Positions 1-6,311 are shown, counted from the first letter of the stretch. The stretch is 64,000 nt of DNA from an uncultured Bacteroidales bacterium (GCA_905234755.1 CAJOIT010000003.1:9135-73134); one strand, 5' to 3'. Program-made: numbers and translations. Notes: generated by a model from the sequence alone, not told the origin.

Positions 1-244
1 GAAATATAATGTCGTCGTAAGTTCCAAGTTCCAAAGCGTAATCTTTGTTGTTTAAATCAAGTTCAACCAATTTGCCATCAGTAGATTTGGACTCAGAAAT
101 CATTTTATTCAAAAGCAATGATTGTATCACAGTGCTTTTCCCAGCAGAATTGGCACCTGTCAGAAGCGTAAGATTGTTTATATGAACCTTTGTGTTTTCT
201 CTAAAACACTTAAAACCTTCTATGCTTAATTTTATTTTTTTCAT
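1..244 (-). CDS. P-loop (AAA_15/AAA_21-like, SMC/ABC-type) ATPase, N-terminal fragment; the gene runs off the left edge
   Basis: Manual minus-strand translation from the ATG at 244 gives MKKIKLSIEGFKCFRENTKVHINNLTLLTGANSAGKSTVIQSLLLNKM... The Walker A motif GANSAGKST sits about 30 aa from the N-terminus, as in ABC/SMC-like defence ATPases. The gene starts 3 nt after the DUF262 stop. It is absent from the ORF track because there is no stop in the window. Confidence 0.6.
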   Translation of the reverse strand, partial: MKKIKLSIEGFKCFRENTKVHINNLTLLTGANSAGKSTVIQSLLLNKMISESKSTDGKLVELDLNNKDYALELGTYDDIIF

Positions 245-247
245 TAT

Positions 248-1591
248 TTATAGTAAATCTATTAGTTTTTGTTTCAATGTTGCAAAAACATAGTTAATAT
301 TCTTTTTGTTGGTTGTACTCCACGAGATTGCTTCGTTGAGGTATTCATCGTGTGCTATCAAATCAGTCAATTTATCAGTCAAATTTATATCAACAGTTGA
401 AACTCGGTTTTGTTCTGCAAATTTTGCCAAGAGAACACTAAGCACCAGCATTAGGGATTTGTTGATTGATAGTTTCTTATTCTGATTATGGGATACTTTT
501 CTAAAAGCATATTCTCCAAATAGTTGATATGCAAGATTCATACTTTTTTTGTAAGCCTCCACATACATACTCAATTCATTTTCAGATTTTCGGTTCAACT
601 CTTCTACACAAGAGTCCAAAGTCCTTTTCATATCGCCGTCGTAATTGCCGATATATGATTCTTCCGAATACTGATTATAGAAGTATATGAATCGCAATGC
701 AGATTCTTGCGCCGCCATACGGGTATCCTTGACACTGCCACAGGTGGCTTTCTTGAATTCGTCAGAATTTACCATATTGTATAAAGTGTCTTGAAGTGGT
801 GTTCTAGCAAGGCAGTTCCTTATTTCTTGATCGTTGAGTACTTTGCCGCCGGTGTTTAATCTTCTGAACAAATCATATTTTAGTTGTGATGGAGAGCGGT
901 AGTCTATCACAAAGCAAGTAATCTGTGTCTGTTTGAATCGCCGTAGTTGCAAACTTGGTAAGTTGAGTTGAGTATATTTTTTGCCATTGCAATAATCGAA
1001 ATACTCCATATTGCATAACGAAAAACGATCTTCCATAAAATCCTTAATCGTGCTGATACGTTGGAGACCATCGACAATTGTCAGGCGACCATCGTTGTAT
1101 TGGCTCAGATATATTGTAGGCAAAGGCAATCCCAAAAAGATAGATTCTATCAAACGACTTTTGCGGGTTCTGTCCCAAATAAAGTTGCGCTGAAATCTCG
1201 GGGCAATTTCCAAGTCTCCATCATTGACCATCTGCACCAATTGCGTGATAGTAAAATTTTTGGGTTCAACAAAAATATCCTTAGGTCCGTAGCCTGGTTT
1301 CTTTGGACTGCGTGCTATTTCTTCTGCATTTGTTTCAAACCCTTGAACATTAGCACTAATCCACTCTTCGGATAAGCCAACCATACGTTCTTCAATGATG
1401 TCGTCAGACTCCTCGAAGTTTGGTTTTTCAATGACAAAAACATCATTTTCGTCTCGCACTATCTTAAACTCTTTAGTGTCGCTATTTTCAGAAATGCCTT
1501 TGAGATAGAATTTCCCATCGTTTTCTTGCAGAGCAAAAGTGGTTTCACTTATATCACCTTTAAGCGTAAAATTAACCTCTAACTGAGCCAT
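248..1591 (-). CDS. DUF262 (ParB/sulfiredoxin-like, GmrSD N-terminal type) domain protein with an unassigned N-terminal domain of about 105 aa
   Basis: 447 aa. It carries the DUF262 signatures ...APRFQRNFIWDRTRKSRLIESIFLGLPLPTIYL...IVDGLQRISTI (FQR...W and DGxQR motifs). I recognise no HNH/DUF1524 motif in the C-terminal half. The gene has its own TAaaTTTG box upstream. Confidence 0.75.
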   Translation of the reverse strand: MAQLEVNFTLKGDISETTFALQENDGKFYLKGISENSDTKEFKIVRDENDVFVIEKPNFEESDDIIEERMVGLSEEWISANVQGFETNAEEIARSPKKPGYGPKDIFVEPKNFTITQLVQMVNDGDLEIAPRFQRNFIWDRTRKSRLIESIFLGLPLPTIYLSQYNDGRLTIVDGLQRISTIKDFMEDRFSLCNMEYFDYCNGKKYTQLNLPSLQLRRFKQTQITCFVIDYRSPSQLKYDLFRRLNTGGKVLNDQEIRNCLARTPLQDTLYNMVNSDEFKKATCGSVKDTRMAAQESALRFIYFYNQYSEESYIGNYDGDMKRTLDSCVEELNRKSENELSMYVEAYKKSMNLAYQLFGEYAFRKVSHNQNKKLSINKSLMLVLSVLLAKFAEQNRVSTVDINLTDKLTDLIAHDEYLNEAISWSTTNKKNINYVFATLKQKLIDLL

Positions 1592-1616
1592 TTTTTTGTT
1601 TTTATTAATACTGTTG

Positions 1617-1624
1617 CAAATTTA
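1617..1624 (-). promoter_or_regulatory. -7 promoter box (TAaaTTTG) for the DUF262/ATPase pair
   Basis: The minus strand reads TAAATTTG, which matches the Bacteroidota primary-sigma -7 consensus TAnnTTTG. It lies 26 nt upstream of the ATG at 1591, in the 72-nt gap after hsdS. Confidence 0.5.
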
Positions 1625-1663
1625 CTAATGTTTTTGATTGATAAACAATATTTTTATCAAAAA

Positions 1664-2905
1664 TTACACTCCCATTTCTCCCTCTATCAACCTTGGCAGC
1701 AACCTGTCTCTTGCTTCCGTCAGAAGACGAATTTGAGACTGTAAGTTTTTAATGGTTGAAAACAATGGCGAAATTACACAATCGAATTTTATAAGGATTT
1801 CAGAACTTGGCATTACAAAGGGCATATTCTTGATTATTGTTGAATTAACAGCTTTGGATATTCCTGATGTATTACCTAAAGAATCATAATGATAGTTCTT
1901 TAGATACAAAAAAGTATAGCATCTCCAATTATCGTCTTTTTTCATGAAATGAGCAATTGCTTCATTGGTACAAACTGGAATATCTGCAATAGAAACCCTT
2001 CCAACTGTCAATTTAAAGCTAAGAAGTATAGTTCCTTCAGGTACAATTCTGACATTATATTTTGCACATGCTTCCTTTGTGAGTTTTTCGCTTGTTGTAT
2101 TTACATATGTTGCATCTTTCATATCAGTTATTGATACCCATGGAATATCCATATGATTAGTTGAAAACCATTCCTTTTCGGCTCTTGGAGGTGTCTTTCC
2201 TATTGACATGTCAAAGAAATCAATAGCTTTCTTCTTCTCCCATCCCTCCGGCACACCGTCCACAATTTTCGTGCTCTCATATCCAGGGAATCGCAAATCG
2301 ACAAACCATTCCTTGTAGAGCCGCTGTGCCGCTTCCTCCAAAAGTTTTATCTGCTTCTGGTAGTTCTCTATCAGGGCGTCGTAGCGGGATAGGATGGTGG
2401 CAATATGAACCTGATAATCTATTGGGGGCAATGGAAACGGGTAATCTTTTATAGCGCTAATAGCTATTCGCATTTGATTTGCTGCGCCCTTTCCTCTCAT
2501 TTGAATATAGTTTTGAAACAGATAATATTTTGAATAATAGCCAAAATACAACTGGTTCAAGACATTCGTGTTTTTAGATCTAATACAGACAGCATTTTGA
2601 TTCAAATAATAGCCCACGACAGCTGAATTAACGATAATTGAACGACCTGCCGAAGAGTTAACTAAATTAGGATGAGATCCTACCGTAGCTATTATTACAT
2701 CATTTAATTGCAGTTCATTTTGGGAATATTTATGTTTTGATGAATAAGGCAGATAATTAATGTCATCGAGCACAAATCCAGAATTTTTGCAGTTGGTAAC
2801 TTTTAAAACAGGAATGCCTTTCGGTACATATTCTTTATCACTCCACGCACCTCCGTTTATAAAGTCGCAGAGATCTCCCAACATTACTTTCTTCCACTCG
2901 TTCAT
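1664..2905 (-). CDS. hsdS: Type I restriction-modification specificity subunit HsdS (two target-recognition domains)
   Basis: 413 aa. Two TRD-like halves are separated by a conserved coiled-coil spacer (ENYQKQIKLLEEAAQRLYKEWFVDLRFPGYE) and followed by a C-terminal spacer (LQSQIRLLTEARDRLLPRLIEGE). Its ATG overlaps the upstream gene's stop (ATGA). Confidence 0.9.
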   Translation of the reverse strand: MNEWKKVMLGDLCDFINGGAWSDKEYVPKGIPVLKVTNCKNSGFVLDDINYLPYSSKHKYSQNELQLNDVIIATVGSHPNLVNSSAGRSIIVNSAVVGYYLNQNAVCIRSKNTNVLNQLYFGYYSKYYLFQNYIQMRGKGAANQMRIAISAIKDYPFPLPPIDYQVHIATILSRYDALIENYQKQIKLLEEAAQRLYKEWFVDLRFPGYESTKIVDGVPEGWEKKKAIDFFDMSIGKTPPRAEKEWFSTNHMDIPWVSITDMKDATYVNTTSEKLTKEACAKYNVRIVPEGTILLSFKLTVGRVSIADIPVCTNEAIAHFMKKDDNWRCYTFLYLKNYHYDSLGNTSGISKAVNSTIIKNMPFVMPSSEILIKFDCVISPLFSTIKNLQSQIRLLTEARDRLLPRLIEGEMGV

Positions 2906-4068
2906 TTCAACTCCTCCTTCAGTTGTTTCTTCCTCAGTTCCAGTTCGGCCACGGTGCGGTCAACGACCTCCCTCAGTTGGTAAGATGCTACACCCAGGGG
3001 CTTGTTAATGTCTTTGAGCGACCATTCCACGATGGTTTTCTTGGCTGTCTTGCAGATAACCAAACCGACGGAAGGGTTGTCGCCCTCGCCACGAAGCAAC
3101 TCGTCGGCAGCGGTAACGTAAAAATTCAGTTTCCCGGCAAACTCAGGCTCAAACTTCACGGCTTTCAGCTCGATGATAACATAGCGTTTCTGCGGGATAT
3201 GATAAAACACCAAGTCTGGAAAGAAGGTGGTTTCGTCGTCCATGCGCAACTCCATCTGTCGTCCTACAAATGCGAAGCCTTTGCCCAACTCCAAAAGGAA
3301 ACGGGTGATGTTATTGACAAGCGCTTCCTCCAAATCATGCTCGTCATACTTGGCTTTCATCGTCAGGAACTCGAAATTATACTCATCCTTCAGCATTTCC
3401 TTGGCCAATTCGCTTTGTGGTGCAGGCAAGGTCTTGTCGAAATTGGTGATAGCAGCGCCTTGCGACAGATAGCGTTTGGCAGCCATCTGGTCTTCGAGCC
3501 AATTGCGGCTCCAGCCTTCTTCGGCTACCTTATTTATGTAGAAAATCGCCTCCTCTATAGATTGGCTTTTGGTAAAGATTTCCACATGATGTCTCCAAGG
3601 AATTCTACCAAAGATTTCTGGCATTTCTAATTGGTCACCAAGTTGGTGACTTTTTTCTACAGACTCCATTTGGTCACCAAGTTGGTGACTTATTTGAGAT
3701 CCTCTAATTTGGCCAGCAACTTGCTGACTTTTTGTAATATTCTCATAATAAAACGAATACCAGCGCTTCATATACTTAACATTGGTATCGGAGAAGCCCG
3801 TTTCATTAGGGAAGGCCTGACGCATATCGAGAGCAAACTGCTTCACTACTCCTGCGCCCCAACGTTCTTCTGCACGCAGTGCCACCAAATCACGACCAAT
3901 GCTCCAATAAAATTCAAGCATTGCCGTATTCACACGAATGGCTGCCTTTATCTGACTTTGGTGGAAACGCGCCTTTACATCAGACAGCCATTTCACATAT
4001 TCATTGTCGGCAATCGTATTGTCGCGATATACAAATGTCGGTTCGTTCTTTGTTTCTTTCTTTTTCAT
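2902..4068 (-). CDS. DUF1016 / YhcG-like PDDEXK-fold nuclease family protein, inserted between hsdM and hsdS
   Basis: The N-terminal YhcG-like helical region reads YVKWLSDVKARFHQSQIKAAIRVNTAMLEFYWSIGRD. The C-terminal PD-(D/E)xK core reads FFPDLVFYH...YVIIELKAVKF. The ATG at 4068 gives an ATGA overlap with the hsdM stop. The ORF-track start at 4083 is a GTG. Confidence 0.8.
   Translation of the reverse strand: MKKKETKNEPTFVYRDNTIADNEYVKWLSDVKARFHQSQIKAAIRVNTAMLEFYWSIGRDLVALRAEERWGAGVVKQFALDMRQAFPNETGFSDTNVKYMKRWYSFYYENITKSQQVAGQIRGSQISHQLGDQMESVEKSHQLGDQLEMPEIFGRIPWRHHVEIFTKSQSIEEAIFYINKVAEEGWSRNWLEDQMAAKRYLSQGAAITNFDKTLPAPQSELAKEMLKDEYNFEFLTMKAKYDEHDLEEALVNNITRFLLELGKGFAFVGRQMELRMDDETTFFPDLVFYHIPQKRYVIIELKAVKFEPEFAGKLNFYVTAADELLRGEGDNPSVGLVICKTAKKTIVEWSLKDINKPLGVASYQLREVVDRTVAELELRKKQLKEELK
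3631..3691. repeat. Two copies of the 21-mer TTGGTCACCAAGTTGGTGACT inside the DUF1016 gene
   Basis: Identical 21-mers start at 3631 and 3671, 40 nt apart. Each contains the near-palindrome GTCACCAA-G-TTGGTGAC. They encode the duplicated SHQLGDQ peptide. Confidence 0.75.
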
Positions 4069-5873
4069 TTCAACTCCTCCCACGCCTTTTGTATCTCGTC
4101 CATCAGCACATTGGCTTCTTTGTTAAGCTGTGCCAGTTCGGAGTGAATTTCGTTCATGCGCTCGTGGAAGTCAACGCCGTCGTCTTCCTGCTCGGCTACA
4201 CCGACATAGGCACCGGGTGTGAGCGAGTAGTTCTTTTCCTCTATCTCTTGTATGGTGGCAATTCGGCATAGTCCCGGAATGTCGTTGTAGGTGCCGTCTT
4301 CGCCAAATTTGTCGGTGAGCCATTTGCGCTGTCGGGCAGTTTCGAGAGTTTCTTCAAGTTTTTCCGTGAGTTTGTTCTGTTCGGCTTCGATGCGCTTTTT
4401 GTCCTTGCGTGGTGCATCGGCAATAATTTGCTTGGCTTCGGCCTTATGCTTCTGCAGGGCTTTTTCGGCAGTTGCTACGGTTTGTGCGCCCAAGGCCTTG
4501 TTGTAGTCGGTTAGCAGTTGCATATATTTGTTGCGCTCGCCACGGTACAGGTGTACTATTGCCTGCAGATTGCGCAACTGCCACTCTGTCCATTCGTTCA
4601 GGGTGCGGTCAACCACGGTGTAGTAGTTGCGGGCATCAATGAAAAGAACCTTGTCGCGGATGTCGGCATTCTTGTTGCGGTCGAAGAACCATAGCGAACA
4701 TGGTAGCGAGAGCGTGTAGAAAAAATTGTTGCCCACGCTTACCATCACGTCCACATCGCCAGTACGCACAAGCTTTTCGCGGATGTCGCGGTCCTTGTTG
4801 GCGCTGTCGGTTGCCGAACTTGCCATAACAAAGCCTGCGCGTCCGTGGTCGTTAAGGTATGCGTAGAAGTAACTAATCCATAGATAGTTGGCGTTACCCA
4901 CTTCCTTGGTCTTTGCGTTCACGCCTGGCAGTCCAAATGGCAGACGCCCTGCCGCCAATGCCGATTCGGACTTGACCTTATCGACATTGAAAGGCGGATT
5001 TGCCATTACATAGTCGCACTTTCCTGCCAGATTGTGGGTGTCGTGGTAGAATGAGTTGGCTTCGTCGCCCGAAATTATCTTTCCGTTGAGCCCGTGTACT
5101 GCCATGTTCATAAGGCAGAGTTGAGCGTTGTATTCTACTTTTTCCTGTCCGAAGAAAGTCATCTGGGTGTTGGCGTTCATTCCGTTTTGGTTCACAAAGT
5201 CGCCAGTCTGCACAAACATACCGCCACTACCACAGGCGGGGTCAAGCATAACGCCCTGTGTGGGTTCCAAAACATTGACAAGCATTTTTACCAGCGACTT
5301 TGGCGTAAAGAACACACCGTCGTCGCTTGCAACGGCCTTGGCGAACTTTGAAAGGAAGTATTCGTATATGCGCCCGATAATGTCGCCGCCAACTTCATCT
5401 ATCGTCTTGTTGTTGAAAATACGGAGCAGTTCGCGCAATAGGTCGTCGGCAAACATTGTATAGTTTTTGGGCAGTACGCCTGCAAGTTGAGTGCTTTGGT
5501 CTTCAACTAACTGCATAGCGTTGTTTACTGCTTCGCCCAGCGAATTGATGTCTTGTCCGTCCTTTGTCTTTAACTTTGCCTCTATGATGTTGTCGGGCAA
5601 ATTTACCAGATATGCGAACTGCGCCTCTTGTGGCAGATATAGTGCGCTTTTGGCAGCAAAGTCGCTTGGCTCGACGGGCATTACGCGCCCACCACGTTTT
5701 GGGCGGTTTTCCAGAATTTCCGCCTCTACCATCTTGTAGCGACTATACGCGTATCGCAGGAAAAGAAGTGCCAGTACTGGCATACAATATTGACTGCTTG
5801 TAAGTTTGCTTCCTTGTCGCAGCAAATCTGCCGATTCCCACAATTCCGCTTCGAGTTTTCTAATGTTTATCAT
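4065..5873 (-). CDS. hsdM: Type I restriction-modification DNA methyltransferase subunit HsdM (N6-adenine)
   Basis: HsdM N-terminal region: LWESADLLRQGSKLTSSQYCMPVLALLFLRY. AdoMet motif: LDPACGSGGMF. Catalytic motif: NPPF (MANPPFNV). The start is set at MINIRKLE (ATG at 5873), 40 nt downstream of a TAtcTTTG box. The ORF-track extension to 6029 overlaps the promoter and the NUDIX remnant. Confidence 0.9.
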   Translation of the reverse strand: MINIRKLEAELWESADLLRQGSKLTSSQYCMPVLALLFLRYAYSRYKMVEAEILENRPKRGGRVMPVEPSDFAAKSALYLPQEAQFAYLVNLPDNIIEAKLKTKDGQDINSLGEAVNNAMQLVEDQSTQLAGVLPKNYTMFADDLLRELLRIFNNKTIDEVGGDIIGRIYEYFLSKFAKAVASDDGVFFTPKSLVKMLVNVLEPTQGVMLDPACGSGGMFVQTGDFVNQNGMNANTQMTFFGQEKVEYNAQLCLMNMAVHGLNGKIISGDEANSFYHDTHNLAGKCDYVMANPPFNVDKVKSESALAAGRLPFGLPGVNAKTKEVGNANYLWISYFYAYLNDHGRAGFVMASSATDSANKDRDIREKLVRTGDVDVMVSVGNNFFYTLSLPCSLWFFDRNKNADIRDKVLFIDARNYYTVVDRTLNEWTEWQLRNLQAIVHLYRGERNKYMQLLTDYNKALGAQTVATAEKALQKHKAEAKQIIADAPRKDKKRIEAEQNKLTEKLEETLETARQRKWLTDKFGEDGTYNDIPGLCRIATIQEIEEKNYSLTPGAYVGVAEQEDDGVDFHERMNEIHSELAQLNKEANVLMDEIQKAWEELK

Positions 5874-5912
5874 AAGATTTGTGTTAAACCTATCTTTCAA
5901 ATTACAATAGCG

Positions 5913-5920
5913 CAAAGATA
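5913..5920 (-). promoter_or_regulatory. -7 promoter box (TAtcTTTG) for the hsdM operon
   Basis: The minus strand reads TATCTTTG, 40 nt upstream of the hsdM ATG at 5873. Confidence 0.55.
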
Positions 5921-5960
5921 GTGTTTTATTGCAGAAAATAAAAGGTAAGTAGTAAATAAA

Positions 5961-6311
5961 TTGAAGATATGTTCTGGTCGTTGGGATTTGCCCAAAGGCT
6001 GGCTCGAAAAAGGCGAAACTCTTGACCAATGCGCTGTGCGCGAGGTCTGCGAGGAGTGCGGACTCAATTCTGCCGACATTATGAACGAAGGCAAACTAAT
6101 CACAACTTACCATATTTATCCTTTCAAGGATGGCTTTGCGCTAAAGGTTACTCATTGGTATAGAATGAAATATATAGGTGCCGGCACAACCAAACCTCAA
6201 ACCGAGGAAGATATAACCGAGGTGAAATGGGTAAGCGAAAGTGAGATGGAGGCGGTGAAGAGAAATAGAAAGATAGATTTTTTGCATAATTTGTTGTATG
6301 TAACAAAATAA
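5961..6311 (+). pseudogene. NUDIX hydrolase, N-terminally truncated remnant
   Basis: The Nudix box GRWDLPKGWLEKGETLDQCAVREVCEECGL starts at residue 6 of the open frame. It normally lies about 30-40 aa in. The frame opens at a TTG directly after a TAA stop, there is no ATG start, and all upstream frames are closed. Confidence 0.6.

What the first reader, a model, noticed from the sequence alone, without database searches (positions are those of the whole stretch)
1..1660. DUF262 (ParB-like) protein plus P-loop ATPase pair with its own promoter, riding on a type I R-M locus: candidate uncharacterised defence module
- **Gene pair:** Directly downstream of hsdS there is a 72-nt gap containing a TAaaTTTG -7 box. 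After it comes a 447-aa DUF262 protein (FQRNFIW ... DGLQRISTI motifs). Three nt after its stop, a gene begins with a Walker-A N-terminus (LTLLTGANSAGKSTV) of the SMC/ABC-like AAA_15/AAA_21 kind. That ATPase gene runs off the window.
- **The DUF262 protein:** It has an unassigned N-terminal domain of about 105 aa. I recognise no DUF1524/HNH half in it, so it is not a canonical GmrSD/SspE-type fusion.
- **Known context:** ParB-like DUF262 domains and ABC-type ATPases are each recurrent parts of known defence systems (GmrSD, Dnd/Ssp; Septu, PARIS, Gabija, Lamassu). Type I R-M operons are known hosts for embedded guard genes (the PrrC/Rlo precedent).
- **Novelty:** I cannot place this specific two-gene architecture in a named system.
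- **Composition:** The block looks more A+T-rich by eye than hsdM.
Basis: partly seen in the sequence, partly recalled or inferred. Interest (0 to 1): 0.75.

Follow-up and report, generated by a model that had tools for sequence, protein, structure and literature searches.

The report
Menshen antiphage cassette inside R-M operon
The DUF262 gene and the cut-off ATPase gene are the first two genes of a three-gene Menshen (NsnABC) antiphage system nested in a type I restriction-modification operon, which is a named system in a documented arrangement rather than a new defence module.

Summary
A 447-aa DUF262 protein (248-1591, minus strand) lies 72 nt after hsdS. Three nt after its stop, a Walker-A ATPase gene begins and runs off the window.

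The claim of novelty does not hold. PADLOC profiles assign the DUF262 protein to NsnA (E 2.7e-104, near full length) and the ATPase N-terminus to NsnB (4.6e-19).

A metagenome contig 99.98% identical to the window extends the locus:
- NsnB is intact (371 aa, AAA_15 + DUF3696, NsnB 9e-94).
- A third overlapping gene is NsnC (313 aa, 8e-50).
- Then come an HD-CE/GHKL/Fic gene, a Fic gene and hsdR.

This is a complete Menshen system (Millman 2022; dissected by Li et al. 2025, PMC12065111). That paper already describes three features seen here:
- N-terminal sensor extensions of NsnA ("Type II" Menshen).
- Frequent occurrence in Bacteroidota.
- Linkage to type I R-M.

In 29 of 29 related Bacteroidota loci nsnB follows nsnA. 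A recognisable nsnC follows in most. The cassette also occurs alone among housekeeping genes.

The TAAATTTG box is present but not conserved in relatives. Interest is low.

The parts
248..1591 (-). nsnA: 447-aa Menshen sensor subunit (N-terminal extra domain + ParB-DUF262 + helical ParBDB domain)
   Evidence: PADLOC NsnA E 2.7e-104, aa 83-441 against profile positions 22-377 of 385. Pfam GmrSD_N 7.6e-24. AF2 model with mean pLDDT 84; best PDB fold match is BrxU (GmrSD family), followed by ParB CTPases and SspE.
1337..1591 (-). NsnA N-terminal domain (aa 1-85): five beta-strands followed by a long helix (aa 63-82); a clade-specific extra domain
   Evidence: Conserved across 40 full-length homologues at 53-82% identity. 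AF2 pLDDT 75-86. No Pfam family. Single-stretch matches that start at residue 1 are all to proteins carrying DUF262 or to short fragments. [quoted passage not shown]
812..1243 (-). ParB-DUF262 NTPase-like domain with motifs QRNFIW (1175-1192), DGLQR (1058-1072) and FRRLN (854-868)
   Evidence: All three motifs are invariant or nearly so in alignment A1.
251..811 (-). All-helical C-terminal domain of NsnA (ParBDB-type)
   Evidence: The model shows helices only from aa 254 to 442. The NsnA profile covers it to aa 441.
1..244 (-). nsnB, first 81 of 371 codons: ABC-type ATPase, Walker A GANSAGKST at 131-157. The gene continues off the window.
   Evidence: PADLOC NsnB 4.6e-19 on the 81-aa fragment. 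The full-length gene in L001 (99.98% identical DNA) scores NsnB 9.3e-94 over profile positions 4-344 of 345, with Pfam AAA_15, AAA_21 and DUF3696. It has IVEN as Walker B, GFG in place of SGG, and ETHSEH, as described for NsnB.
1592..1663 (-). 72-nt hsdS-nsnA spacer with TAAATTTG (1617-1624) 25 nt upstream of the nsnA ATG; candidate internal promoter, no terminator
   Evidence: The fold z-score is 0.41 and there is no terminator-like site. The motif is absent from the 34-38 nt spacers of R-M-embedded relatives.
1664..2905 (-). hsdS (type I specificity subunit, two target-recognition domains)
   Evidence: Pfam Methylase_S 7.8e-33; PADLOC Specificity_I 6e-93.
2902..4083 (-). DUF1016/YhcG PDDEXK nuclease gene nested between hsdM and hsdS
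   Evidence: Pfam YhcG_C 1e-53 and DUF1016_N 8.5e-31; PADLOC PDC-S02 6e-129.
4065..5873 (-). hsdM (probable start at the ATG at 5873; TATCTTTG box at 5913-5920, 39 nt upstream, is the candidate operon promoter)
   Evidence: Pfam N6_Mtase 2.7e-76 and HsdM_N; PADLOC MTase_I 7e-269, with the match starting at ORF aa 52. Coordinates.

Best explanation
The region holds nsnA and the 5' end of nsnB of a complete Type II Menshen (NsnABC) antiphage cassette. The cassette is nested between hsdS and hsdR of a type I R-M operon in a Bacteroidales genome.

Proposed mechanism. It follows the model of Li et al. 2025, and apart from domain composition it is inferred, not shown:
1. NsnA senses invading DNA. 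It uses its ParB-like DUF262 NTPase domain (QRxxxW, DGxQR and FxxxN motifs), its helical DNA-binding domain, and an extra N-terminal beta-sheet-plus-helix domain.
2. NsnA signals to NsnB, an ABC ATPase. NsnB is predicted to form a tetramer that holds NsnC through its C-terminal DUF3696 helix.
3. ATP binding or hydrolysis by NsnB then activates or releases NsnC. NsnC is the two-domain effector: a Rossmann/PIN-like N-half and a small helix-plus-four-strand C-half with invariant His and Glu residues, most likely a nuclease acting on RNA.
4. Phage replication is stopped, possibly by abortive infection.

The cassette is an autonomous, horizontally mobile unit. It is A+T-rich and is also found alone elsewhere. 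It is probably transcribed both from the hsdM promoter and perhaps from a weak internal promoter.
For: - Family assignment: NsnA 2.7e-104, NsnB 9.3e-94 and NsnC 8.2e-50, each near full length.
- Locus extension: L001 and L002 match the window at 99.98-100% identity and give the order hsdM-DUF1016-hsdS-nsnA-nsnB-nsnC-(HD-CE/GHKL/Fic)-Fic-hsdR.
- Operon signs: nsnA and nsnB are 3 nt apart, and nsnB and nsnC overlap by 14 nt.
- NsnB carries the diagnostic EN Walker B, GxG and DUF3696 features.
- Synteny: in 29 of 29 related loci with downstream DNA nsnB follows nsnA, and an nsnC-like gene is found by tblastn in 21. Five loci have the cassette alone among housekeeping genes. L004 and L008 have hsdS-nsnABC-hsdR.
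- NsnC N- and C-halves recombine independently, for example 40% against 94% identity in P0129. This matches the polymorphism described.
- Literature: Menshen of Solibacillus silvestris protects against phage, and loss of the DUF262 gene abolishes protection. 15.5% of 1997 catalogued systems are from Bacteroidota, and 27.9% are linked to BREX, type I or type III R-M, or methylases.
Against: - No experiment exists on this locus or this subfamily.
- The sensor-transducer-effector order is a bioinformatic model. Li et al. could not predict an NsnA-NsnB contact.
- The fold class of NsnC here is unresolved: no PDB match below E 0.3, no Pfam hit, and only a sub-threshold EC042_2821 REase-like hit.
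- nsnC and most of nsnB are seen only in near-identical metagenome contigs, not in the window itself.
Confidence: 0.9

Rival explanations
1. A genuinely new two-gene DUF262 + ABC ATPase defence module that no named system accounts for.
For: NCBIfam has no model for NsnA or NsnC, and the sources call the homologues only 'DUF262 domain-containing protein' or 'hypothetical'. No Pfam family covers the N-terminal domain.
Against: All three genes give strong, near full-length matches to the Menshen profiles. A third gene is always attached. The architecture, including N-terminal extensions and R-M linkage, is described in PMC12065111.
Confidence: 0.02
2. A PD-T4-2, GmrSD/SspE or Dazbog-type DUF262 system rather than Menshen.
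For: PD-T4-2_A matches NsnA at 4.4e-42. There are weak SspE and type II REase hits. The best PDB fold hit is the GmrSD-family enzyme BrxU.
Against: NsnA scores about 200 bits higher than PD-T4-2_A. No PD-T4-2_B match appears among the 25 PADLOC families listed for the partner, which is an ABC ATPase; PD-T4-2 is tabulated with a HEPN domain. No DUF1524/HNH domain is present.
Confidence: 0.03
3. The cassette is a functional accessory of the type I R-M enzyme, in the way PrrC guards EcoprrI. On this reading it would be triggered when restriction is blocked, or would read methylation state, rather than acting as an independent system.
For: It is nested between hsdS and hsdR here and in L004 and L008. 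It directly follows hsdS in L009, and in L011 judged from the upstream sequence. There is no terminator after hsdS. Li et al. raise possible cooperation with methylases.
Against: Close relatives (54-61% identical NsnA, same N-terminal domain) occur as stand-alone three-gene cassettes among housekeeping genes with no R-M nearby. The experimentally validated Menshen was cloned as the three genes nsnABC (Fig. 1A). Embedding of unrelated known defence systems in type I R-M operons is common.
Confidence: 0.08

Closest known systems
Menshen (NsnABC), Type II as defined by Li et al. 2025 (PMC12065111); first validated in Solibacillus silvestris StLB046 (Millman et al. 2022, as cited there)
   Same: Three-gene order A-B-C. 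NsnA is ParB-DUF262 plus a helical ParBDB domain, with no DUF1524. NsnB is an ABC ATPase with EN Walker B, GxG and a DUF3696 tail. NsnC is a two-domain protein of about 300 aa with mosaic evolution. NsnA carries an N-terminal extra domain. The system occurs in Bacteroidota and is linked to type I R-M.
   Different: The S. silvestris NsnA has no N-terminal domain (Type I). Which of the 33 NsnA-N, 35 inPIN and 15 effector families this locus belongs to could not be checked, because the supplementary tables are not held. NsnC here gives no significant fold or Pfam match.
PD-T4-2 (Vassallo et al. 2022)
   Same: The DUF262 protein lacks DUF1524. PD-T4-2_A matches at 4.4e-42.
   Different: The partner here is an ABC ATPase plus NsnC. 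PD-T4-2 is tabulated with a HEPN domain. The score is much lower than for NsnA.
GmrSD / BrxU / SspE type IV restriction enzymes
   Same: Same DUF262 NTPase domain and following helical domain. BrxU is the best PDB fold match.
   Different: Those fuse DUF262 to a DUF1524 HNH nuclease in one polypeptide. Here the nuclease function is delegated to a separate protein through an ATPase.
ABC ATPase + effector systems: PARIS (AriAB), Septu (PtuAB), Gabija (GajA), HEC-03, PrrC/RloC
   Same: An AAA_15-type ABC ATPase predicted to hold and regulate a nuclease. NsnB matches HEC-03B at 4.6e-40, AriA at 2.5e-17 and GajA at about 1e-15. PrrC is the precedent for nesting in a type I R-M operon.
   Different: None of these has a DUF262 sensor subunit. 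The ATPase profiles score far below NsnB.

Membership tests
Menshen (NsnABC) | NsnA with a ParB-DUF262 domain carrying the QRxxxW, DGxQR and FxxxN motifs | tested here: met
   QRNFIW, DGLQR and FRRLN are present and conserved. Pfam GmrSD_N 7.6e-24. PADLOC NsnA 2.7e-104.
Menshen (NsnABC) | NsnA C-terminal helical ParBDB domain and no DUF1524/HNH nuclease domain | tested here: met
   The AF2 model is all-helical from aa 254 to 442. The NsnA profile is covered to aa 441. There is no DUF1524 hit.
Menshen (NsnABC) | NsnB ABC ATPase (AAA_15) with a C-terminal DUF3696 helix, encoded immediately downstream of nsnA | tested here: met
   In the window: 81 aa, NsnB 4.6e-19. In L001 (99.98% identical): 371 aa, NsnB 9.3e-94, AAA_15, AAA_21 and DUF3696 at 2.9e-09. 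EN Walker B and a GFG signature are present.
Menshen (NsnABC) | A third gene, nsnC, immediately downstream, with an N-terminal inactive PIN-like domain and a C-terminal effector (usually a nuclease) | tested here: inconclusive
   The gene is present, overlaps nsnB by 14 nt, and matches PADLOC NsnC at 8.2e-50 over its full length. It lies off the window. The model is confident (pLDDT 89.6) and has two domains, but the PIN-like and nuclease fold assignments found no significant PDB or Pfam match.
Menshen (NsnABC) | Conserved three-gene synteny across genomes | tested here: met
   nsnB follows nsnA in 29 of 29 loci. An nsnC-like gene is detected in 21 by tblastn, and ORFs of about 300 aa occupy the same position in the stand-alone loci inspected.
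Menshen (NsnABC) | Protection against phage that depends on the three genes | not testable with these tools
   Shown only for the S. silvestris system.
GmrSD / SspE type IV restriction | DUF262 fused to a DUF1524 (HNH-type) nuclease domain | tested here: not met
   No DUF1524 match. The SspE profile matches only 27 residues at E 8e-4.
PD-T4-2 | A DUF262 protein paired with the PD-T4-2_B partner (HEPN-type) | tested here: not met
   PD-T4-2_A scores 142 bits against 347 bits for NsnA. No PD-T4-2_B match appears among the 25 PADLOC families listed for the partner gene.
PrrC/RloC-type R-M guard | An ABC ATPase fused to an anticodon nuclease and dependent on the host R-M enzyme | tested here: not met
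   NsnB has no nuclease domain. The cassette occurs without R-M in L003, L006, L010, L012 and L015. Functional dependence on R-M is not testable here.

The most novel reading that the evidence does not exclude
The nesting between hsdS and hsdR recurs in this Bacteroidales clade. It could reflect real functional coupling rather than a shared integration hotspot. For example, the clade-specific N-terminal beta-sheet/helix domain of NsnA might read the methylation or restriction status of DNA, so that Menshen fires on phages that escape the type I enzyme. In addition, the N-terminal domain and the NsnC effector half might belong to families not yet among those catalogued for Menshen.
Probability: 0.1. 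Interest if true: 0.5.

Novelty: already known. Interest (0 to 1): 0.15.

Why it matters
The result matters little beyond correct annotation. The locus should be labelled Menshen (nsnA, nsnB, nsnC) rather than 'DUF262 protein plus ATPase'. NCBIfam has no model for NsnA or NsnC, so genome annotation will keep presenting such loci as unknown. The locus is a tidy example of a layered defence island built inside one type I R-M operon, holding DUF1016, Menshen, an HD-CE/GHKL/Fic protein and a Fic protein. Traces of stepwise insertion are visible. A Bacteroidales Type II Menshen with a compact N-terminal sensor domain could be a convenient subject for the still-missing mechanistic work on Menshen.

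Tried and rejected
- Extending further left than L001: a second look-up with NsnC returned the same two contigs. The sequence beyond hsdR and the >1 Mb source contig were not obtained.
- Assigning NsnC to a fold class. Foldseek against PDB gave nothing below E 0.3. BFVD gave one uncharacterised siphovirus protein at 3.4e-05. A profile search of PDB sequences gave nothing. Pfam on the two halves gave only a sub-threshold EC042_2821 REase-like hit at E 0.012. PHROGs gave nothing.
- Assigning the NsnA N-terminal domain. Pfam gave nothing. In Foldseek it attracted only insignificant SH2-like hits at E 0.2-0.6. An exhaustive phmmer search found 43 hits. Of the six checked with Pfam, the two single-stretch hits starting at residue 1 carry DUF262, and the four multi-stretch hits are DUF5122 beta-propeller proteins. 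I read the propeller hits as beta-meander resemblance, not homology.
- Matching this locus to the domain families of Li et al.: the supplementary tables are not held.
- A conserved promoter upstream of nsnA: rejected, because TAnnTTTG at a suitable distance occurs only here and in L017.
- A terminator or structured element in the 72-nt spacer: rejected (z = 0.41; no site).
- The sigma-70 scan is not appropriate for Bacteroidota and was not used as evidence.

Full report
**Observation.** The minus strand of window 1-6029 carries a tightly packed gene row:
- hsdM, 4065-5873/5915.
- A DUF1016/YhcG PDDEXK gene, 2902-4083.
- hsdS, 1664-2905.
- A 72-nt spacer, 1592-1663.
- A 447-aa ORF, 248-1591.
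- After the stop TAA and three bases (ATA), an ORF starting at 244 that runs off the window after 81 codons.

Pfam gives GmrSD_N/DUF262 for aa 117-260 (E 7.6e-24) with no DUF1524. For the fragment it gives AAA_15, AAA_23 and AAA_21. The block is A+T-rich: nsnA has 37.4% GC and the nsnB part 32.4%, against 49.5% for hsdM and 43.6% for the window. hsdS is equally A+T-rich.

**What it is.** PADLOC profiles place the 447-aa protein in NsnA (E 2.7e-104, aa 83-441 on profile positions 22-377 of 385). They place the 81-aa fragment in NsnB (4.6e-19). NsnA and NsnB are the first two subunits of the Menshen antiphage system.

An exact-protein look-up returned two metagenome contigs. L001 (15.4 kb) is 99.98% identical to the window over 6222 bases, and L002 is 100% identical. 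They extend the locus past the left end of the window:
- nsnB is intact: 371 aa, NsnB 9.3e-94 over the whole profile, with Pfam AAA_15, AAA_21 and DUF3696.
- It overlaps by 14 nt a 313-aa gene with no Pfam family. That gene matches PADLOC NsnC at 8.2e-50 over its full length.
- Then follow an 898-aa HD-CE + HSP90-like GHKL + Fic protein, a 386-aa Fic protein (PDC-S72, 4e-124), and hsdR.

The full NsnB sequence shows the peculiarities that Li et al. list for NsnB: Walker B IVEN rather than DE, GFG in place of SGG, and ETHSEH. The 'pair' is thus the first two thirds of a complete nsnABC cassette nested between hsdS and hsdR.

**Comparison with the literature.** Li et al. 2025 (PMC12065111) define the parts of Menshen as follows:
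- NsnA: an optional N-terminal sensor domain (present in 23% of systems, called 'Type II'), then ParB-DUF262, then ParBDB.
- NsnB: an ABC ATPase with a DUF3696 tail.
- NsnC: an inactive PIN-like domain plus a variable effector.

They catalogue 1997 systems, of which 15.5% are from Bacteroidota. They report that 27.9% are linked with BREX, type I or type III R-M, or methylases, and they show a type I R-M example. Anti-phage activity was shown for the Solibacillus silvestris system, and loss of the DUF262 gene abolishes it. Payne et al. (bioRxiv 10.1101/2024.01.29.577857) show that nesting of known and candidate defence genes inside type I R-M operons is common.

**The N-terminal domain.** Forty full-length homologues at 53-82% identity conserve it. 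AlphaFold2 models it as five beta-strands followed by a long helix at aa 63-82 (mean pLDDT 84 for the whole protein, 75-86 for this part). [quoted passage not shown] I could not check membership of a specific family, because the supplementary tables are not held.

An exhaustive phmmer search with aa 1-85 found 43 hits. The single-stretch matches that begin at residue 1 are to a known NsnA homologue (P0113), to two proteins that Pfam shows carry DUF262 (P0217, P0235), and to short fragments. The other hits are long proteins matched in several short stretches. Four of these were checked and all are DUF5122 beta-propeller proteins. I read that as beta-meander resemblance. The remainder of NsnA best matches BrxU (GmrSD family), then ParB CTPases and SspE.

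**NsnC.** The model is confident (pLDDT 89.6) and has two halves. The first is an alpha/beta N-half. The second is a C-half of helices followed by four strands, carrying invariant H268, E272, H280, E283 and H299. No significant PDB, Pfam or PHROG match was found. The nuclease or RNase assignment therefore rests on family context, not on a test made here. The two halves evolve as a mosaic: P0129 is 40% identical in the N-half and 94% in the C-half, while P0130 is 81% and 52%. This is the shuffling that Li et al. describe.

**Neighbourhood conservation.** A scan of one genome per species found 31 loci, all with taxonomic labels within Bacteroidota: Bacteroides, Prevotella, Paludibacteraceae, Muribaculaceae, Chitinophagaceae, Flavobacterium and others.
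- nsnB follows nsnA in all 29 loci that have downstream DNA.
- An nsnC-like gene is detectable by tblastn in 21 of them.
- L004 and L008 have hsdS-nsnABC-hsdR without the HD-CE and Fic genes. L009 has hsdM-DUF1016-hsdS-nsnA. L011 also follows an hsdS 3' end.
- L003, L006, L010, L012 and L015 carry the three genes alone among housekeeping or glycosyltransferase genes.

The cassette is therefore an autonomous mobile unit that repeatedly lands in R-M operons.

**Promoter claim.** TAAATTTG lies 25 nt upstream of the ATG. However, TAnnTTTG occurs 74 times in the window against 56 expected. It is absent from the 34-38 nt hsdS-nsnA spacers of the R-M-embedded relatives. It is found at a suitable distance in only one other locus. 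The spacer has no terminator and no significant structure. Read-through from the hsdM promoter is likely; a candidate box, TATCTTTG at 5913-5920, lies 39 nt before the probable hsdM start. An internal promoter is possible but unproven.

**Mechanism (inferred).** NsnA senses phage DNA. NsnB, an ABC ATPase, transduces the signal. NsnC, held through the DUF3696 tail of NsnB, is activated or released and degrades nucleic acid, probably RNA. Only the domain composition and the synteny are shown here.

**Verdict.** This is a correctly observed but already named system in an already described context. Novelty is 'already known' and interest is low. The residual novel possibility is functional coupling to the R-M enzyme, or uncatalogued N-terminal and effector domain families. 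I put this at about 0.1.

Noticed in passing
L001:8038-8085 and L001:12047-12092 (off the window, left of position 1): The 129-nt spacer after nsnC contains a near-exact copy of about the first 45 coding nt of hsdR (…GACTACAGCGAAGACAAACTGATACAGCAAAG.ACAGCC). The HD-CE/GHKL/Fic and Fic genes therefore look like a later insertion at the hsdR 5' end. Relatives L004 and L008 have nsnC directly followed by hsdR.
   Followed up: partly
L001:8152-10848 (off the window): An 898-aa protein combines HD-CE (aa 45-299), an HSP90/MORC-like GHKL ATPase (aa 367-483) and a Fic domain (aa 702-853). A second Fic gene (PADLOC PDC-S72, 4e-124) follows it. This is an unnamed candidate defence pair nested in the same R-M operon, and it is more obscure than the Menshen cassette.
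   Followed up: partly
window 6127-6267 and L001:15258-15398: The last 141 bases of L001, just after hsdR, are 100% identical to part of the NUDIX hydrolase gene that lies upstream of hsdM (window 5961-6311, + strand). The positions of the contig ends (k = 141) suggest a direct repeat of about 185 bp flanking the whole 15-kb R-M/defence island. This is consistent with insertion of the island next to or into the NUDIX gene. No integrase was seen.
   Followed up: partly
window 2902-4083 (-): A DUF1016/YhcG PDDEXK nuclease gene sits between hsdM and hsdS, with overlapping stop and start codons on both sides. It matches the PADLOC candidate family PDC-S02 (6e-129). L009 has a similar gene (27% identity) in the same position.
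   Followed up: no
window 5873-6029 (-): The mechanical hsdM ORF (TTG at 6029, 654 aa) is too long. Profile matches begin at ORF residue 52, and the probable start is the ATG at 5873. It is preceded at 39 nt by TATCTTTG (5913-5920), a Bacteroidota-type -7 box and the likely operon promoter.
   Followed up: partly
alignment A2 (NsnC homologues): The NsnC N-half (aa 1-145) and C-half (aa 206-313) have discordant identities across homologues: 40%/94%, 81%/52% and so on. This shows recombination between the two domains within this Bacteroidales subfamily.
   Followed up: yes
window 1337-1591 (-), NsnA aa 12-50: The N-terminal beta-strands give repeated weak matches (up to 12 stretches per protein, summed E down to 7e-18) to DUF5122 beta-propeller blade repeats in long secreted Bacteroidota-type proteins. 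This probably reflects a blade-like beta-meander rather than homology.
   Followed up: partly
window 248-1591 (-): NsnA matches PHROG family phrog_2598 (unknown function) at 1.6e-68 over aa 104-443, and NsnB matches phrog_21420 at 2.5e-40. Menshen-like genes are therefore also carried by phages or prophages.
   Followed up: no
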